Source of the DNA: a virus
IMG/VR virus record: IMGVR_UViG_3300009082_000017
Span: 1 to 64,000 of that record
Direction: 5' to 3' (one strand)
DNA: 64,000 bases
In this document: in pieces, positions 51,726-63,902 of the stretch
How the letters are laid out: every line of letters begins with the position of its first letter
Position numbering within the stretch: the first letter of the stretch is position 1
Notes under the pieces: generated by a model
What the model was told of the DNA's origin: nothing
What the model saw: only the letters and a program-made list of their open reading frames with translations
The model's database searches: none
Made by a program: the position numbers and the translations under genes

Positions 51726-52183
51726 ATTATACTCTTATCATATAACCGGATTATATAACAGAATCCGGTTATAACATAAGGTTATAATAAGGTAACCGGT
51801 ATATAATGGAGTATAACAGAATGAAAAAAATCATTAACAAAAAATGGATGATGGATACCAGACAAGTTAAAAAATTTAACCTGAAAGTCGCACGAAAAAA
51901 CAAGGCTGCACGTATTGAATTTTTAACACGGTTGGATGTATAATCATGTCAACAAAATTTAAAAAATGGTTTTTTGGCTGGCACTATGCGCCTGAATTAC
52001 TACAATCATTAATAGGAATTAATAACAGGCTAGTCGGTTTTAATGTAATCTGGCATGAAAACGGATATCACTTCCGACTAATCAACTAATTTTATTTTGA
52101 CTCTTGTAATTCAGTTAACAGCATGGTACAATTGAATTACAAGCGCGGAAGTAAAATTAAAAAATTAAAAAGGATGGTTTAAA

Positions 52184-52471
52184 ATGGAAGAAAAACGCGC
52201 AGTATTAGTTTATCAGGCAGGAATTGCAAACGTTTTTGAAGTTGAATGTTTCAATATGTGCAATTTTGGAAGAAACGCAAAAAGAATTTTGCAAAGTGAT
52301 TTTAACACGTGCGAATCATTCGCAAATGGTTTAAAATATGCCGGATTTAAAATCACTTCTGCCGGTTGCAATATGGCCGGCAATATCATTAACAGCGAAT
52401 GGAATACGAATCTAGAATCACTGCCCTTTAATGATAAATTTCATCCTGTTTATAATGGAATACTTCATTAA
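52184..52471 (+). CDS. Early hypothetical protein
   Basis: AAGGATGG SD; LVYQAGIANVFEV. Confidence 0.65.
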   Translation: MEEKRAVLVYQAGIANVFEVECFNMCNFGRNAKRILQSDFNTCESFANGLKYAGFKITSAGCNMAGNIINSEWNTNLESLPFNDKFHPVYNGILH

Positions 52472-52587
52472 TTTTATCCTGATCATGCCGGTTTAATAAT
52501 AGTATAGACCGGCAAAATGAGTATAAAATTAAAAAATTCGGTTATAATACTTAACAGAAAACAAAATTTGAATAACAGGATTAAAAA

Positions 52588-52833
52588 ATGGAAGACTTAA
52601 AACATGGAACTGGAATTAAAAATAAAAAATCAGGTTCAATAGCATGTATATGTGAATCTTTTAAACATAATGGAGAAAACACCAATTGGTTAATAGTAAC
52701 ATGCTATCATATTTTATTCACTGGTAAAAATAGATACCAATATATAAACCATGATGATATAATTAAAAAATGGAATATCTTAACCCCTCAAGAATTCGAT
52801 CAAGAATTTAAAAAAATTCATAACCTGGAGTAA
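52588..52833 (+). CDS. Early hypothetical protein
   Basis: AGGA SD; tandem gene packing. Confidence 0.55.
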   Translation: MEDLKHGTGIKNKKSGSIACICESFKHNGENTNWLIVTCYHILFTGKNRYQYINHDDIIKKWNILTPQEFDQEFKKIHNLE

Positions 52834-52836
52834 AAA

Positions 52837-53079
52837 ATGATATTACAATTAATTAATTCAAAAAATCGAATAGTTTACACTGCCAAAAAATCAGAAGACA
52901 ATACATATATTAATATCGAACATGAGTCAGGCGGGGGAATTGCTTATAAACCAGAAGACCTATACTTAACAGCGGCGTGTTGTCTTAATGATAATCCATC
53001 ATGCAAAATAACAGGTACATACGCAAACCAATTTAAAGAATATTGCAAGGGGTTAACATGGTTGCAAATAAAAATCTAG
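52837..53079 (+). CDS. Early hypothetical protein
   Basis: GGAG SD; tandem gene packing. Confidence 0.55.
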   Translation: MILQLINSKNRIVYTAKKSEDNTYINIEHESGGGIAYKPEDLYLTAACCLNDNPSCKITGTYANQFKEYCKGLTWLQIKI

Positions 53080-53279
53080 AGTATAGAATAACCCATAAAA
53101 CAGGTTCGTGCCGGTCTGGTATAGACTTAACGGGATATATAACGCACGTGGTAATTAATAACAATTCATTATGTGGTAATAACCCTAACAAAAAATCATC
53201 TTGGTCTGAATATGATGATCAAATAATAACATGCAAAAAATGTATAACAATTCTAGAATCACTTAACAGACAATCATAA
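53058..53279 (+). CDS. Early zinc-binding hypothetical protein
   Basis: H..SLCG..W..TCKKC; ATG 53058 after AAGGGG. Confidence 0.55.
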   Translation: MVANKNLEYRITHKTGSCRSGIDLTGYITHVVINNNSLCGNNPNKKSSWSEYDDQIITCKKCITILESLNRQS

Positions 53280-53303
53280 ATAGATACCAATTGGAGACTA
53301 AAA

Positions 53304-53543
53304 ATGTATTATTTTGGAACACTTAAAAACGACAAATTGACAGAAGTATTTTACTCTAAAACAAAGCCAACACAATTAACGCATGGTAACATATATAAAT
53401 ATCTAACAGGCGGATATAAAACAAAGTCAGAAGCCATACAGCAAGCTAATTATACAAGTTATTGCAAGGTTGTATTTTTTGATCGTAGAAAAAAAGAAAA
53501 TATAACTAATCATAATTTATGTATGATAACAGGTATAATCTAA
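53304..53543 (+). CDS. Early hypothetical protein
   Basis: GGAG SD. Confidence 0.55.
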   Translation: MYYFGTLKNDKLTEVFYSKTKPTQLTHGNIYKYLTGGYKTKSEAIQQANYTSYCKVVFFDRRKKENITNHNLCMITGII

Positions 53544-53758
53544 TGGAACATCAGACCATAACAGAACCGATTAAACCATTTTTAACCAATAATAACACCA
53601 TGTATTTTAAACATCCGGTAACGCATGAAATATACACCATGCAAGCGGATAATACCAGTGCATACGATATTATAACAGGTATGCCATTATCAGGCCGTTG
53701 GTTATGTTCTGAATCTCAATTTAATCAATATAAGAGTATTTTTATAACAGAACCTTAA
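53543..53758 (+). CDS. Early hypothetical protein
   Basis: TAATG stop/start overlap. Confidence 0.5.
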   Translation: MEHQTITEPIKPFLTNNNTMYFKHPVTHEIYTMQADNTSAYDIITGMPLSGRWLCSESQFNQYKSIFITEP

Positions 53759-53766
53759 AAATACTT

Positions 53767-53795
53767 GACAAGTCTTAACAAACGTGCTAAAATCA
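53767..53795 (+). promoter_or_regulatory. Sigma70-type early promoter (similar promoters at ~60081, ~62008, ~63851)
   Basis: TTGACA-17-TAAAAT with TG extension. Confidence 0.7.
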
Positions 53796-53835
53796 TTAAC
53801 AGATAACACAATATAGATAACAGGGAGCGCTTAAA

Positions 53836-61560: not shown

Positions 61561-61573
61561 AAAGGATGATACA

Positions 61574-61756
61574 ATGAAAATAAGTAAAAATGCTAAGATA
61601 TGGTTGAGTTATATTGATAAAAATGGATTTATGCCCTTAAATGCAGATATTCCAGAAATGAATTGTGAAGACCGTCTTAAAGCATTTAAGGAACTATTGA
61701 ATAAGAAAATAATAGTCAAAAGGGATTGTGCCGGAGTAGCTTATGAAAGAGCATAG
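61574..61756 (+). CDS. Early hypothetical protein
   Basis: AAGGA SD. Confidence 0.5.
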   Translation: MKISKNAKIWLSYIDKNGFMPLNADIPEMNCEDRLKAFKELLNKKIIVKRDCAGVAYERA

Positions 61757-62080
61757 AACATCTGTTCCATGAAAGAGTGGTTTCATGGTGAATCAACATT
61801 AAATATTGACACTTGGTTGCAAACCCTCACCACATACCCTATTTAAGGCACTCCAGAGCCTCATGGCGCGATTTATACATCAAATTGGACAAATATACAC
61901 TATAACTATTTAAATCGTTTGTAGGGCTTCCTGTGGGATAAAGTTTATGATGATAATAAAGTTGAACATTAGAAAACTTAAAAAATCTAACCAATATCCA
62001 AAAACACTTGACTTTTGAATATACTTGACTGTATAATGGTTATGTAATCAAAAACAGTTTACAAAAAAGGAGAAAATAAA

Positions 62081-62305
62081 ATGGCTGAACATAACGAACA
62101 CCGTGTAATCGAATTATTGGAAACCGAACAACTATTAAACAGAATAGATAATGTTTATGATCGTCTTGTTGATGAGACAGAAAATCCAGAAACTTATCAT
62201 AACAAAATTAAAACAGAAAAACTTCACGCGTTATTGGATATTTTGGAATACATCAAAAACAATGTGGATAATCCTTTGGATGAGATTTTCTGGAAAGAGT
62301 CATAG
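62081..62305 (+). CDS. Early hypothetical protein with its own promoter
   Basis: AAGGAG SD; TTGACT-18-TATAAT. Confidence 0.6.
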   Translation: MAEHNEHRVIELLETEQLLNRIDNVYDRLVDETENPETYHNKIKTEKLHALLDILEYIKNNVDNPLDEIFWKES

Positions 62306-62541
62306 AACACTTACACCATGAAATGTCAATTTTATTAGAACAGAAAGGATAAAAATGATAACACGAATCGAACAAACAGCAAAATTATTTTATGATAGTT
62401 ATGGATATGAAAAATCAACAGCAATTATTAATCAAATTGCATTTGTATATCGTGACAATAAAGAGGAAGCAAAATTCTGGTATGATGTTTTTACAGAACT
62501 AACAAAATTGAGAAACTAGATTAACAGAAAAGGAGATATAA

Positions 62542-62919
62542 ATGACCGATTACAAAGTTGATGACATAATTTCATATACGGTGCAAACAGACCCAATAAC
62601 CTACACCTCAAAGATCACAAATATTAGACTTGGTAATGGATATACAGAATACCTAGTATCTAATTATTGTGGAATGAAAGTAGACGGAGTTGTATTTGAT
62701 TTTCAAATAACAAAACCCTCAAAAAAACGATATAACACAATGTCTAATATCGGTCATGCCAAATATGTAGTGAATTATTGTGGTGGTATCAAAAAGCATA
62801 GTGACGGTAGCGACTTCTTTGATATTGCAATTTTCAAGAACAAAAAGAAATTAAATGATTTTCTTCTTGAATTAGTCAATGATGGATATATTCAAGCAAA
62901 AATGGGTATTTATTCTTAA
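62542..62919 (+). CDS. Early hypothetical protein
   Basis: AAGGAG SD; NIGHAKYVVN..DGSDFFDIAIF. Confidence 0.6.
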   Translation: MTDYKVDDIISYTVQTDPITYTSKITNIRLGNGYTEYLVSNYCGMKVDGVVFDFQITKPSKKRYNTMSNIGHAKYVVNYCGGIKKHSDGSDFFDIAIFKNKKKLNDFLLELVNDGYIQAKMGIYS

Positions 62920-63091
62920 CAGAAGGGTATAAACAGATGAGAATAGGTAAAAACGTTATACTAATAGGTTTTTCTAAGCAATTCCGATTTTATAAAACCG
63001 GATTTAGCATGACTGGATTATACTCTTATAGAACAATCATAAGAATCGGATTTATTCAAATTGATATTTTCAAAGATTAGAAAGGATAACC

Positions 63092-63328
63092 ATGAAAAAA
63101 TCATACGAATTTTGGCTCCTACCCTATAACGAATTTCACCAAACGCCTGAACAACCCTATTCAGGTATAACAGGAACACTTAACACGGTCAAGAATTGGT
63201 GCGAGGAGTTATTCTGGACTAACCATAACGCAACCGCTATTCAATATAAATCGGTTGGTGGTAGAATTACTCATACAATGGAACGTGGGGACTTGCCTAG
63301 TTTTTATAAACCTGGACAAAAGGTTTAA
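63092..63328 (+). CDS. Early hypothetical protein
   Basis: AAGGA SD. Confidence 0.55.
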   Translation: MKKSYEFWLLPYNEFHQTPEQPYSGITGTLNTVKNWCEELFWTNHNATAIQYKSVGGRITHTMERGDLPSFYKPGQKV

Positions 63329-63331
63329 TTT

Positions 63332-63565
63332 ATGAAACTACTTCGCAGGCTTGAATGCTTAAAATATCAACTCCACTACACCCTATCAAAACATAAAACT
63401 TATATTTGTGACGAATGTAAACAATCACATATAACAGCAAGTGACAGGATTATCCTCAACGAAAAATTATGTATCTTTGTTGGTGGTGAATGTGGAAGAA
63501 AAGTAATCCAACAAGCAAAAGAAATTTTGAGAAATGGTGTAATTGATCAATTGACAAAGATGTAA
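63332..63565 (+). CDS. Early hypothetical protein
   Basis: AAGG SD; CDEC. Confidence 0.5.
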   Translation: MKLLRRLECLKYQLHYTLSKHKTYICDECKQSHITASDRIILNEKLCIFVGGECGRKVIQQAKEILRNGVIDQLTKM

Positions 63566-63638
63566 TCCCCATGAAACTTTTCTTTCATGGTGTAGATAGA
63601 ACAGAAATTCTATAACAGACAATAACAGGAGGATGACT

Positions 63639-63854
63639 ATGAATAAACAAAAATTTACAATCGAATTTGACGAACATCCAGGCGGTCTTTGGGCTAGAAT
63701 CAATGGTAAACGATATCTTATATGCCAAACTAGCGGTGAATTTGTTGCAGATAACGGTTGTGCTATTAGTGATTTTTATTGGGAAGACCCTAGTAAAAAT
63801 CCAGAAATTGTAAAAGATATTTTTCAGGCCATCGCTAATAAATTTGGTGCTTGA
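63639..63854 (+). CDS. Early hypothetical protein
   Basis: GGAGG SD before ATG 63639. Confidence 0.55.
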   Translation: MNKQKFTIEFDEHPGGLWARINGKRYLICQTSGEFVADNGCAISDFYWEDPSKNPEIVKDIFQAIANKFGA

Positions 63855-63902
63855 CATTACTTAACAGTCGTGCTATTATGAATAACGAAAGGAGATATAA
63901 AA

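What the first reader, a model, noticed from the sequence alone, without database searches (positions are those of the whole stretch)
51750..63870. About 46 transcript-strand TAACAG hexamers concentrated in the early region, many abutting Shine-Dalgarno sites
Seen: a by-eye count gives ~46 TAACAG on the + strand in ~12 kb, against roughly 4-5 expected from composition, and only one CTGTTA (~55970). In the divergent minus-strand early genes the motif flips (CTGTTA at ~50725 and ~50959), so it tracks transcription direction. It is sparse in the late arm. It occurs inside ORFs, in promoter spacers and directly before RBSs (e.g. ataacagGGAG ~53817, ttaacagAAAGGAG 62521, ataacagGAGG ~63622). Inference: a recognition word for a sequence-specific endoribonuclease or RNA-binding protein that times early mRNA decay (compare T4 RegB cutting GGAG), an antitermination signal, or a polar DNA signal for first-injected DNA.
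Basis: partly seen in the sequence, partly recalled or inferred. Interest (0 to 1): 0.7.

Follow-up and report, generated by a model that had tools for sequence, protein, structure and literature searches.

The report
One-way TAACAG word marking early genes
An uncultured relative of Bacillus phage SPbeta writes the six-letter word TAACAG about 13 times more often than chance, always pointing the same way, through its block of small early genes, so some still unknown factor must read it, most likely on the early messenger RNA.

Summary
TAACAG occurs 46 times on the + strand and once on the - strand in 51750-63870, against 3.6 +/- 1.9 expected. The run continues beyond the window to about 79.7 kb of the 160-kb phage genome (68:2). 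It is the most extreme hexamer in the genome, survives codon-preserving shuffles, is enriched in both usable reading frames and is densest in non-coding DNA. A relative (G001, RNA polymerase 63% identical) has the same oriented word in its syntenic early block, although most early genes differ and only about 18% of the DNA aligns. All six bases matter (7.7-fold; single-base variants at most 2.1-fold). About a third of the copies near early start codons sit exactly 14 nt before the ATG; no middle or late gene has one. Middle genes avoid TAACA on the sense strand.

The phage is a distant SPbeta-like phage with a YonO-type RNA polymerase. Best reading (about 0.4): a mark on early transcripts that controls their translation or decay. 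Main rival (about 0.3): a one-way DNA signal beside the presumed packaging end. A Chi identity is unlikely, because (T)GCCGAA behaves like the host Chi instead. This scan noted similar oriented words marking early modules in other phages.

The parts
51756..63867 (+). Array of 46 same-strand TAACAG (WTAACAG) copies. This is the window part of a 68-copy block that continues to about 79.7 kb of the genome.
51726..51788 (+). Long hairpin just after the first early gene. It has 27-nt arms (85% complementary; perfect 12-bp core) and a loop of ATATAACAG that carries the first motif copy.
   Evidence: z = -5.5. G001 has an 11-13-bp hairpin with a wholly different stem and the motif at its apex at the same place (z = -5.2).
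51250..51500 (.). Divergent control region, conserved in G001. It holds repeated TTTTAAGGTTGTTCTAT boxes (51260, 51401, 51424) and a rightward extended -10 promoter (TGATACAAT, 51460-51468). The motif changes strand across this region.
50475..51253 (-). Short leftward early operon of three small genes, one encoding an ArdC-N domain. It carries the word on its own sense strand (50725-50730, 50959-50964) and none on the antisense strand.
   Evidence: G001's homologous operon has one sense copy at a non-homologous position.
62522..62544 (+). Example of the RBS class: TAACAG, then AAAAGGAG, then ATG exactly 14 nt after the word. Other examples in the window start at 54110, 56255, 56862, 57766, 62917 and 63613.
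63851..63879 (+). Near-consensus sigma-70-type promoter with TAACAG in its spacer (TTGACA-N5-TAACAG-N6-TATTAT). A second case lies at 60081-60110. This is a minority context.
47079..48136 (-). Two further copies on the - strand (47079-47084, 48131-48136) left of the control region. One lies inside the + strand SF2 helicase gene 47107-48594 and is antisense to it; the other lies just upstream of that gene.
   Evidence: Relatives show the same polarity in this segment (L062 3:0, L063 2:0).
43384..45699 (-). YonO-type single-subunit RNA polymerase gene at the head of the late structural arm. It anchors the comparison with SPbeta, where the pac site lies next to yonO.

Best explanation
WTAACAG is a cis-acting word kept by selection on the sense strand of the operons that the host RNA polymerase transcribes first. 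These are the 28-kb rightward block of small genes and the short leftward operon, in an uncultured SPbeta-like phage lineage that uses a YonO-type polymerase for its late genes.

I think it is most likely read as single-stranded RNA by a sequence-specific protein, either an endoribonuclease or an RNA-binding regulator encoded by phage or host. Acting at many sites along each early message, and especially at sites 2-3 nt upstream of the Shine-Dalgarno sequence, that protein would set the translation and lifetime of early messages as a class. This is the logic of T4 RegB. Middle genes have purged the word so that they escape it.

Shown here: selection, orientation, block limits, exact-word specificity, the positional link to early ribosome-binding sites, and conservation in a relative. 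Inferred: that the molecule read is RNA, that a protein reads it, and the outcome (cleavage or repression).
For: - Enrichment is 13-fold in 51.5-64 kb and 4.6-fold in 64-80 kb, on the sense strand only. It survives codon-preserving shuffles, and both non-stop frames are enriched with copies spread evenly along genes. Selection therefore acts on the nucleotide word.
- Non-coding DNA is about 2.6 times denser in copies than coding DNA (28 of 68 copies in 16% of the block).
- 8 of 22 (G000) and 8 of 27 (G001) copies within 60 nt upstream of early starts sit exactly at -20, including 9 in spacers of at least 35 nt. The word precedes 10/55 and 13/61 early genes and 0/252 middle and late genes that use the same AAAGGAG-type SD.
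- The 3' flank is A-rich, as at strong RegB sites (PMC3014915).
- The block ends where recognisable metabolic genes begin.
- Sense TAACA is depleted in middle genes of both phages: 26 vs 62 and 34 vs 58 under synonymous shuffles.
- The leftward operon carries the word on its own sense strand in both phages.
- Copies are predicted to be less paired than same-composition hexamers: 0.69 vs 0.49, p = 3e-10; 0.60 vs 0.52, p = 0.005.
- The first copy sits at the apex of a strongly structured hairpin whose stem differs completely between the two phages.
- G001 keeps the same density although most early genes are unrelated. 16 of 21 alignable copies are conserved, against 40% expected.
Against: - No reader was found. 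Neither phage has a RegB or PemK/MazF homologue, and the conserved early proteins match no family.
- Outside the block the word is depleted on the same DNA strand even in the late arm, where that strand is antisense to the genes. G000 has 5 vs 11.5 (2 vs 10.9 without the 26-28.2 kb segment); relatives have 0 vs 11.8. An mRNA mark does not predict this.
- Two copies left of the control region lie on the strand opposite the helicase gene there, one of them inside that gene, and the gene itself carries no sense copy.
- Exact six-base specificity and frame-independent enrichment through coding sequence are typical of DNA-tracking signals such as Chi. No RNA mark of this kind is documented.
- The -20 hot spot could arise cheaply, because AGAAAGGAG already supplies the final AG of the word.
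- The accessibility result is partly circular, because the complement of the word is rare on that strand.
- Part of the middle-gene depletion may reflect avoidance of TTAA and GTTAAC.
Confidence: 0.4

Rival explanations
1. A one-way DNA signal beside the packaging end. By analogy with SPbeta, pac and the virion DNA ends lie in the 46-51.5 kb segment next to the YonO gene, so the early block is the DNA next to an exposed, probably first-entering, end. A machine that tracks along DNA from that end would read the word on one strand. Candidates are a helicase-nuclease of the AddAB/RecBCD type (Chi-like protection or recombination for circularisation), the terminase, or an entry motor. The word would be concentrated near the end and selected against further in.
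For: - SPbeta-like phages package by headful from a pac site between yonP and yonR, at the divergence of the late and early arms. G000 has the same layout.
- Density is highest at the pac-proximal edge and decays over about 18% of the genome.
- Polarity flips across the divergence point. Copies to its left are 4:0, 3:0, 2:0 and 2:1 in four phages, 11 against about 4 expected by my tally, including one inside an oppositely oriented gene.
- Outside the block the avoidance follows one DNA strand whatever the gene direction.
- All six bases are required, and enrichment is frame-independent in coding DNA.
- There is a published precedent: co-oriented, terminally clustered Chi sites in phages LLS (20:3) and MD8 (32:0) and many in headful phage P1. 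Chi is under-represented in phages that have their own Rec module and a RecBCD inhibitor (PMC12315714).
Against: - The pac position and packaging direction are inferred by analogy only.
- In SPbeta the true host Chi (AGCGG) is polar genome-wide (50:6) and not block-limited. The word that behaves that way here is (T)GCCGAA, at 36:4 and 32:3, so TAACAG is probably not the host Chi.
- Both phages encode a Sak4-like annealing protein and a RecJ-like exonuclease, so they do not fit the 'no Rec module, many Chi' rule.
- This reading does not explain the exact -20 placement before early start codons in long spacers or the covarying hairpin that presents the word.
- G001's late arm shows no avoidance (16 vs 11.3).
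- SPbeta and the 35%-identity relative G002 have no such block.
Confidence: 0.3
2. A co-transcriptional signal for the host RNA polymerase on the long early operons. The word would be read in the non-template strand or in the nascent RNA, to load or renew an antitermination or processivity factor, or to pace transcription that helps draw the genome into the cell, as in T7.
For: - The orientation matches transcription in both divergent early units.
- The terminator scan found no + strand intrinsic terminator in 48-64 kb, consistent with very long early transcripts.
- Several copies lie 1-4 nt after a -10 box, at likely transcript starts (52552, 53264, 53797, 57408, 59071).
- A structured element carrying the word follows the first gene.
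- The block makes up about 18% of the genome next to the presumed entering end.
Against: - Known antitermination signals (nut, put, ops) act from one or a few sites and are longer. Sixty-eight copies of an exact hexamer have no precedent.
- This reading gives no reason for the -20 hot spot or for purging the word from middle genes transcribed by the same polymerase.
- Many strong promoters in the block lack the word.
- No NusG/LoaP-like or Q-like factor was looked for or seen.
Confidence: 0.12
3. A promoter or termination word for the phage's own YonO-type RNA polymerase. Its avoidance on the antisense strand of the late arm would then prevent antisense transcription.
For: - The lineage that has the word also has a distinct YonO clade (60-85% identity), and the + strand word is depleted in the YonO-flanking and late DNA of those relatives (0 vs 11.8).
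- The promoter recognised by YonO is unknown (PMC5467207).
- From memory only, not checked here: the AR9 non-virion polymerase recognises a short AACA-containing word.
Against: - No TAACAG lies near the estimated position of SPbeta's mapped YonO start, in the yonN-yonK gap.
- Sense copies in the late arms are at chance in G000 (12 vs 12.7), almost all inside coding sequence, and unrelated to gene starts.
- Under this reading the block of small early-type genes would be the most heavily YonO-transcribed region, whereas in SPbeta YonO serves only the late operon.
Confidence: 0.05
4. No function: a by-product of base composition, codon or amino-acid usage, or the spread of one duplicated RBS or promoter cassette.
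For: - The block is A-rich on the + strand. Its proteins are rich in Leu/Ile/Val-Thr-Asp/Glu-type tripeptides, which raises the synonymous-shuffle expectation above the dinucleotide one.
- Some copies lie in repeated promoter or RBS modules.
Against: - The downstream 80 kb has equally A-rich + strand genes and only 5 copies.
- Every shuffle control is exceeded.
- Single-base variants are not co-enriched.
- 47 of 68 copies lie in DNA that does not align with the relative, which nevertheless has the same density.
Confidence: 0.03

Closest known systems
T4 RegB endoribonuclease and its GGAG targets in early mRNAs (PMC3014915, PMC1702504)
   Same: A short exact word tied to the translation-initiation regions of early genes only. 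The 3' context is A-rich. Later gene classes escape. The presumed purpose is rapid functional inactivation of early messages.
   Different: The word is TAACAG, not GGAG. It lies 2-3 nt upstream of the Shine-Dalgarno sequence rather than inside it. About 60% of copies are inside coding sequence in either frame. No RegB-family gene is present. Cleavage is not shown. The host is probably a Bacillota member, not E. coli.
Co-oriented, terminally clustered Chi sites in phages LLS, MD8 and P1 (Zheng et al. 2025, PMC12315714)
   Same: Dozens of copies of one exact short word, nearly all in one orientation, concentrated towards one part of the genome. They are kept by selection independently of codon usage and turn over in position between relatives.
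   Different: In those phages the word is the known host Chi and the phages lack a recombination module. Here the host and its Chi are unknown, a different word ((T)GCCGAA) shows the genome-wide polarity expected of Chi, the phage has Sak4-like and RecJ-like genes, the density is higher (2.4-3.7 per kb), and the word has a fixed position before early start codons.
Genome-wide polar host words in SPbeta itself (Chi AGCGG 50:6; G-rich GAAGGG/AGGGGA words, which from memory resemble the SpoIIIE recognition sequence)
   Same: Same phage family and the same genome layout. Both are strand-polar short words.
   Different: Those words are spread over the whole genome on one DNA strand whatever the gene direction. 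TAACAG is confined to the early block and is avoided elsewhere.
Oriented words marking early-gene modules noted by this scan in other phages (for example e1-370615, CAGTCTGG in a 12-kb block of small genes)
   Same: A block-limited, one-way, highly enriched word in a module of small early-type genes.
   Different: A different word, a different phage group, and an AI note that I did not check. It was read as Chi-like there.

Membership tests
T4 RegB system | Phage encodes a RegB-family endoribonuclease (Pfam PF10715) | tested here: not met
   Six-frame search of G000 and G001 found no match at E <= 1.
T4 RegB system | Target word GGAG lies within the Shine-Dalgarno sequence of early mRNAs | tested here: not met
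   The word is TAACAG and ends 2-3 nt before the SD. Most copies are in coding sequence.
T4 RegB system | Early-class specificity, with middle and late messages spared, and an A-rich 3' context | tested here: met
   The word precedes 23/116 early genes and 0/252 middle and late genes. Sense TAACA is depleted in middle genes. A is over-represented at +1 and +2 after the word.
T4 RegB system | Endonucleolytic cleavage at the word, stimulated by ribosomal protein S1 | not testable with these tools
   Needs RNA end mapping or enzymology.
Chi-type signal (RecBCD/AddAB), terminal cluster as in LLS and MD8 | The word is the host's Chi: over-represented and replication-strand-skewed in the host chromosome and recognised by its helicase-nuclease | not testable with these tools
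   The host is unknown. No close prophage was found in genome collections, and TnpB relatives are uninformative. (T)GCCGAA is the better Chi candidate.
Chi-type signal (RecBCD/AddAB), terminal cluster as in LLS and MD8 | Copies are co-oriented and concentrated near a DNA end, in the orientation met by an enzyme entering at that end | tested here: inconclusive
   Co-orientation (68:2) and a gradient are shown. The position of the end is inferred only from SPbeta.
Chi-type signal (RecBCD/AddAB), terminal cluster as in LLS and MD8 | The phage lacks its own recombination module | tested here: not met
   A Sak4-like AAA_24 protein (80 bits, above the cut-off) and a RecJ-like YorK homologue (35% identity, E = 2e-86) are present. 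RecT, ERF and RecA are absent.
MazF/PemK-type sequence-specific mRNA interferase encoded by the phage | PemK_toxin domain (PF02452) | tested here: not met
   No match in G000 or G001.
Sigma-70-type promoter element | Fixed position relative to -35/-10 hexamers in most copies | tested here: not met
   Only 3-4 promoters per phage contain the word. Many strong promoters lack it, and -10-like hexamers show no preferred offset.
SPbeta-like phages with a YonO-type RNA polymerase (the genome, not the motif) | YonO homologue at the head of a leftward late structural arm, SPbeta-type terminase, and a long rightward arm with YorI/J/K/L-type replication genes | tested here: met
   YonO 28% identity over 524 aa with SPbeta (E = 4e-29) and 34.5% with phage BUCT082. 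Terminase 32-37% identity to relatives. Layout as in SPbeta.

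The most novel reading that the evidence does not exclude
An exact hexamer written through every early message, in any reading frame and just ahead of early ribosome-binding sites, serves as a temporal address label. A dedicated sequence-specific RNA-reading protein of a new family, unrelated to RegB or MazF, uses it to switch off or process the whole early transcript class in a Bacillota phage that hands late transcription to a YonO-type polymerase. Middle genes have evolved to avoid the label.
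Probability: 0.3. Interest if true: 0.8.

Novelty: new variant of a known kind. Interest (0 to 1): 0.62.

Why it matters
Very little is known about how large phages of Gram-positive bacteria separate early from later gene expression. For the SPbeta group, even the promoter of the YonO polymerase is unknown.

A six-base label that selection maintains across a fast-turning-over set of early genes points to an unidentified reader with restriction-enzyme-like specificity. If it acts on DNA, it would extend the recently described terminal Chi clusters to a new word, a new host group and a headful-packaging phage.

Either way the label gives a simple computational marker for early blocks in this lineage. 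The side finding that (T)GCCGAA is genome-wide polar may reveal the Chi sequence of an unknown low-GC host.

Tried and rejected
1. Promoter element. Only 3-4 promoters per phage hold the word and there is no preferred offset to -10 or -35 hexamers. Rejected.
2. General presentation in hairpin loops. Stems of at least 5 bp flank 19% of copies against 16% of controls. Only the first copy has a strong, covarying stem.
3. Reading by base-pairing (sRNA or rRNA). G.U-compatible variants are not co-enriched. Unsupported.
4. General extended Shine-Dalgarno. All gene classes use AAAGGAG, but only early genes have the word. Rejected.
5. YonO promoter or terminator. No support.
6. Phage-encoded RegB or MazF. 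Absent.
7. Candidate readers among conserved early proteins and neighbours of the control region. Pfam and PHROGs gave nothing except an ArdC-N domain, an SF2 helicase and TnpB.
8. Same or another block-limited polar word in SPbeta and in the 35%-identity relative G002. None found.
9. Host identification. TnpB relatives are archaeal at about 45% identity. YonO relatives in genome collections are only the distant group, in doubtful MAG bins. megablast against cultured phages found nothing.
10. More early blocks of the lineage. The conserved 207-aa early protein and the control-region DNA pattern found only G001. Metagenome relatives with YonO at 60-85% identity are too short to reach an early block.
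11. Rfam. No family matched.
12. Minus-strand genes inside the block, as a test of RNA against DNA. None could be validated.
13. Type III or Type ISP restriction evasion by single orientation. Considered and rejected, because opposite-strand copies occur at normal frequency elsewhere in the genome.
14. Packaging direction in SPbeta-like phages. It could not be read from the text of the preprint.

Full report
**The observation.** TAACAG occurs 46 times on the + strand and once on the - strand between 51750 and 63870. Dinucleotide-preserving shuffles of 51.5-64 kb give 3.6 +/- 1.9 on the sense strand and 2.1 on the antisense strand. The window is the first 64 kb of a 160,042-bp viral record. In the whole genome the run continues to about 79.7 kb with falling density: 21, 12, 11, 7, 8, 2 and 5 copies per 4 kb, which makes 68 on + and 2 on -. 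The next 80 kb are also + strand genes and equally A-rich, yet hold only 5 copies. TAACAG is the most extreme hexamer both by a Markov expectation and by contrast with the rest of the + arm. It is also the top hit of an unbiased scan for locally enriched polar words. The word extends to WTAACAG, most often followed by A.

**Codon controls.** It does not. Synonymous-codon shuffles that keep every protein, and hold all non-coding copies fixed, give 25.1 +/- 2.2 (maximum 33) against 46 observed. Codon permutation gives 19.4. For coding copies alone, both frames that avoid the in-frame stop are enriched: xTA-ACA-Gxx 27 vs 11.4 and xxT-AAC-AGx 13 vs 3.4. Copies are spread evenly along genes. Of the 68 copies, 40 are coding, 6 use TAA as a stop codon and 22 are intergenic, in a block that is 84% coding. 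Selection therefore acts on the nucleotide word, whatever the translation frame.

**Specificity.** Across the early blocks of the two phages the exact hexamer is 7.7 times its first-order expectation. No single-base variant exceeds 2.1, and variants that would keep G.U pairing are not favoured. That looks like recognition by a protein with restriction-enzyme-like specificity and not like base-pairing.

**What the genome is.** The - strand arm (0.8-45.7 kb) encodes the portal, terminase, tape measure and tail proteins. Its terminase is 32-37% identical to those of Thomasclavelia, Lysinibacillus, Staphylococcus SPbeta-like, Bacillus SPbeta-like and Clostridioides phages. The 771-aa protein at the head of that arm (43384-45699) matches proteins that two records annotate as 'RNA-dependent RNA polymerase', and it matches SPbeta YonO itself (28% over 524 aa, E = 4e-29). 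YonO is the single-subunit DNA-dependent RNA polymerase that transcribes the SPbeta late operon; its promoter is still unknown (PMC5467207). G000 also has homologues of YorI, YorJ, YorK and YorL, and its layout is that of SPbeta. Sigma-70-type promoters and AAAGGAG ribosome-binding sites fit a low-GC Bacillota host. The host itself could not be identified.

**Relatives.** The closest viral contig, G001 (143 kb, YonO 63% identical), shows the same pattern in the syntenic place. It has 51 copies on + and 5 on - in 114-132 kb, and more up to the contig end. Only about 18% of the early block aligns between the two phages, at about 86% identity, and most G000 early genes have no detectable homologue in G001. 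Of the 21 copies in alignable DNA, 16 are conserved against 40% expected, often as islands in diverged flanks. The other 47 lie in DNA that does not align. The density is thus maintained independently of position and gene content. A relative with YonO at 35% identity (G002) and SPbeta itself have no block-limited polar word.

**Contexts.** Pooling 129 copies from both phages, positions +20/+21 after the start of the word are AT in 46% and ATG in 22%, and an A/G-rich stretch follows the word. This reflects a class in which TAACAG is followed by AA, the Shine-Dalgarno sequence, and an ATG exactly 14 nt after the word. Among copies within 60 nt upstream of early start codons, 8 of 22 (G000) and 8 of 27 (G001) are at exactly -20. 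Nine of these lie in spacers of at least 35 nt, where other positions were available. The word precedes 10/55 and 13/61 early genes and none of 252 middle or late genes, although all classes use the same SD. Only 3-4 promoters per phage carry the word, either in the spacer or just after the -10 box, and many strong promoters lack it.

The first copy of each phage sits at the apex of a strongly structured hairpin just after the first early gene. The stems are entirely different in the two phages: G000 51726-51788, z = -5.5; G001, z = -5.2. Hairpin presentation is not general, but copies are predicted to be less paired than same-composition hexamers.

**Avoidance outside the block.** In the + strand middle genes, sense TAACA is depleted in both phages under synonymous shuffles (26 vs 62; 34 vs 58). 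All TAACAN words stand at 0.3-0.5 of expectation, while the antisense strand is near normal. Palindromes such as TTAA, GTTAAC, TCGA and AGCT are also depleted there, so part of this may be restriction-site avoidance.

The late arm changes the picture. The word is at chance on the sense strand (12 vs 12.7) but depleted on the + strand, which is antisense there. G000 has TAACAG 5 vs 11.5 and TAACA 47 vs 77 (z about -4 under synonymous shuffles). Leaving out the 26-28.2 kb segment that holds three + copies, these become 2 vs 10.9 and 39 vs 72. Metagenomic contigs of the same lineage (YonO 60-85% identical) show the same: 19 copies on the YonO strand and 0 on the other against 11.8 expected, with TAACA at 42 vs 83.6. 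G001's late arm is the exception (16 vs 11.3). Outside the early block, then, avoidance follows one DNA strand rather than the sense strand.

**The flip.** Left of the divergent control region (51250-51500) all copies are on the - strand. Two lie in the leftward early operon, as sense copies. Two more lie at 47079 and 48131; the second is inside a + strand helicase gene and antisense to it. Relatives show 3:0, 2:0 and 2:1 in this segment.

**Weighing the readings.** An RNA-level mark of early messages, on the RegB logic (PMC3014915), best explains the following:
- the early-only -20 position;
- the higher density in non-coding DNA;
- the agreement of the block's limits with a gene class;
- the purge from middle-gene sense strands;
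- the structured element that presents the word;
- the orientation in both divergent early units.

It does not explain the avoidance on the antisense strand of the late arm. No RegB or MazF/PemK homologue exists, and no other candidate reader was recognised.

A DNA-level reading draws on two published facts. First, SPbeta-like phages package by headful from a pac site between yonP and yonR, exactly at the divergence next to yonO. Second, some phages carry co-oriented, terminally clustered Chi sites: LLS 20:3, MD8 32:0, and many in P1 (PMC12315714). This reading explains the gradient from that point, the flip, the one-strand avoidance, the exact-word specificity and the frame-independent enrichment.

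Against TAACAG being the host Chi:
- In SPbeta the real Chi (AGCGG) is polar over the whole genome (50:6) and not in a block.
- In G000 and G001 the word that behaves that way is (T)GCCGAA, at 36:4 and 32:3.
- Both phages have a Sak4-like annealing protein and a RecJ-like exonuclease, so they do not fit the published 'no Rec module, many Chi' rule.

Pac and the packaging direction are known only by analogy. A co-transcriptional role, a YonO promoter role and a no-function explanation were also considered. The last two are contradicted.

**Verdict.** The feature is real, selected, oriented, block-limited and conserved in a relative, and its reader is unknown. My odds:

| Reading | Odds |
|---|---|
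| Early-transcript mark | about 0.4 |
| One-way DNA signal beside the packaging or entering end | about 0.3 (Chi itself the lesser part) |
| Co-transcriptional signal | about 0.12 |
| YonO polymerase word | about 0.05 |
| By-product | about 0.03 |
| Something not yet thought of | the remainder |

It is a new variant of known kinds of signal rather than a member of any of them. Earlier notes of this scan describe comparable oriented words in early-gene modules of other phages. I did not check those notes. If they hold, this may be a recurrent and undescribed way of labelling early DNA or RNA.

Noticed in passing
whole genome G000 (window copies on + at about 0.8, 3.8, 4.2, 12.8, 25.9, 30.5, 31.0, 34.1, 34.3, 35.1, 36.2, 42.9, 59.2 kb) and G001: (T)GCCGAA is strongly polar over the whole genome whatever the gene direction: GCCGAA 36:4 and TGCCGAA 22:1 in G000, 32:3 and 17:1 in G001, against about 14 expected per strand. 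The known B. subtilis Chi (AGCGG, 50:6) behaves the same way in SPbeta. This is a candidate Chi, or other chromosome-polar word, of the unknown host.
   Followed up: partly
window 43384-45699 (-): The 771-aa protein is a YonO-type single-subunit RNA polymerase at the head of the late structural arm. The phage is a distant SPbeta-like phage. Relatives with 60-85% identity occur in several metagenomes, including activated sludge.
   Followed up: yes
window 50366-50386, 51043-51063 (inverted) and 51260-51282, 51401-51423, 51424-51446 (direct): Operator-like boxes (TTTTTTAAGGTT, extended to TTTTAAGGTTGTTCTAT) surround divergent promoters between the leftward operon and the early block, and are conserved in G001. 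They are probably the binding sites of the switch regulator.
   Followed up: partly
window 50475-50765 (-): A small early protein consists of an ArdC N-terminal (ssDNA-binding, anti-restriction) domain alone (Pfam E = 2e-7). It is 76% identical in G001.
   Followed up: partly
window 49000-49700: A low-GC non-coding stretch with odd short repeats (GGTATAGGGATAGGG-like x3, ATACCATACCATACCA, and two 45-nt AT-rich repeats), between the helicase gene and the leftward operon. It is a candidate pac site or origin.
   Followed up: no
genome 69265-70575 (L040:5265-6575): A solo TnpB (OrfB_IS605 plus Cas12f1-like TNB domains) lies inside the early block and is absent from G001. Its closest relatives in genome collections are archaeal (Methanoperedens, Heimdallarchaeota, about 45%).
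   Followed up: partly
genome 79251-81510 (L040:15251-17510): A PRPP-synthetase-like gene (Pfam matches below the curated cut-offs) and a NAMPT (nicotinamide phosphoribosyltransferase) gene sit at the exact right-hand limit of the motif-rich block. This looks like an NAD-salvage pair.
   Followed up: no
window 2652-63571 and the rest of the genome (other first-stage notes): The ATRAAA-N6-TTTYAT dyads and tyrosine-recombinase-like genes flagged by other notes have a family precedent. SPbeta's master repressor MrpR (YopR) has a tyrosine-recombinase fold without recombinase activity and binds the repeated SPBRE element (PMC10516654). This favours a repressor or operator reading over a gene-cassette recombination system. 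G000 has no detectable YopR homologue by tblastn, though a YomM-like integrase homologue lies at 16179-16943.
   Followed up: partly
genome 80-160 kb (middle genes) and G001 1-65 kb: Short palindromes TTAA, TCGA, AGCT, ATCGAT, AGATCT and GTTAA(C) are among the most depleted words under synonymous shuffles. This is a restriction-avoidance signature.
   Followed up: no
window 26986, 27687, 28089 (+); G001 89314-91503: The few + strand TAACAG copies in the late arm cluster in one conserved, relatively GC-rich segment, possibly the capsid gene region (not annotated here), in both phages. In G001, TAACA is 11:0 in 88-92 kb.
   Followed up: no
window 35895-35969 and 38033-38107 (-); genome 75335-75411, 132232-132306 (+): Four tRNA genes: Thr(UGU), Pro(UGG), Arg(UCU) and Met(CAU). 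tRNA-Thr(UGU) reads ACA, the codon used by the commonest coding frame of the motif.
   Followed up: no
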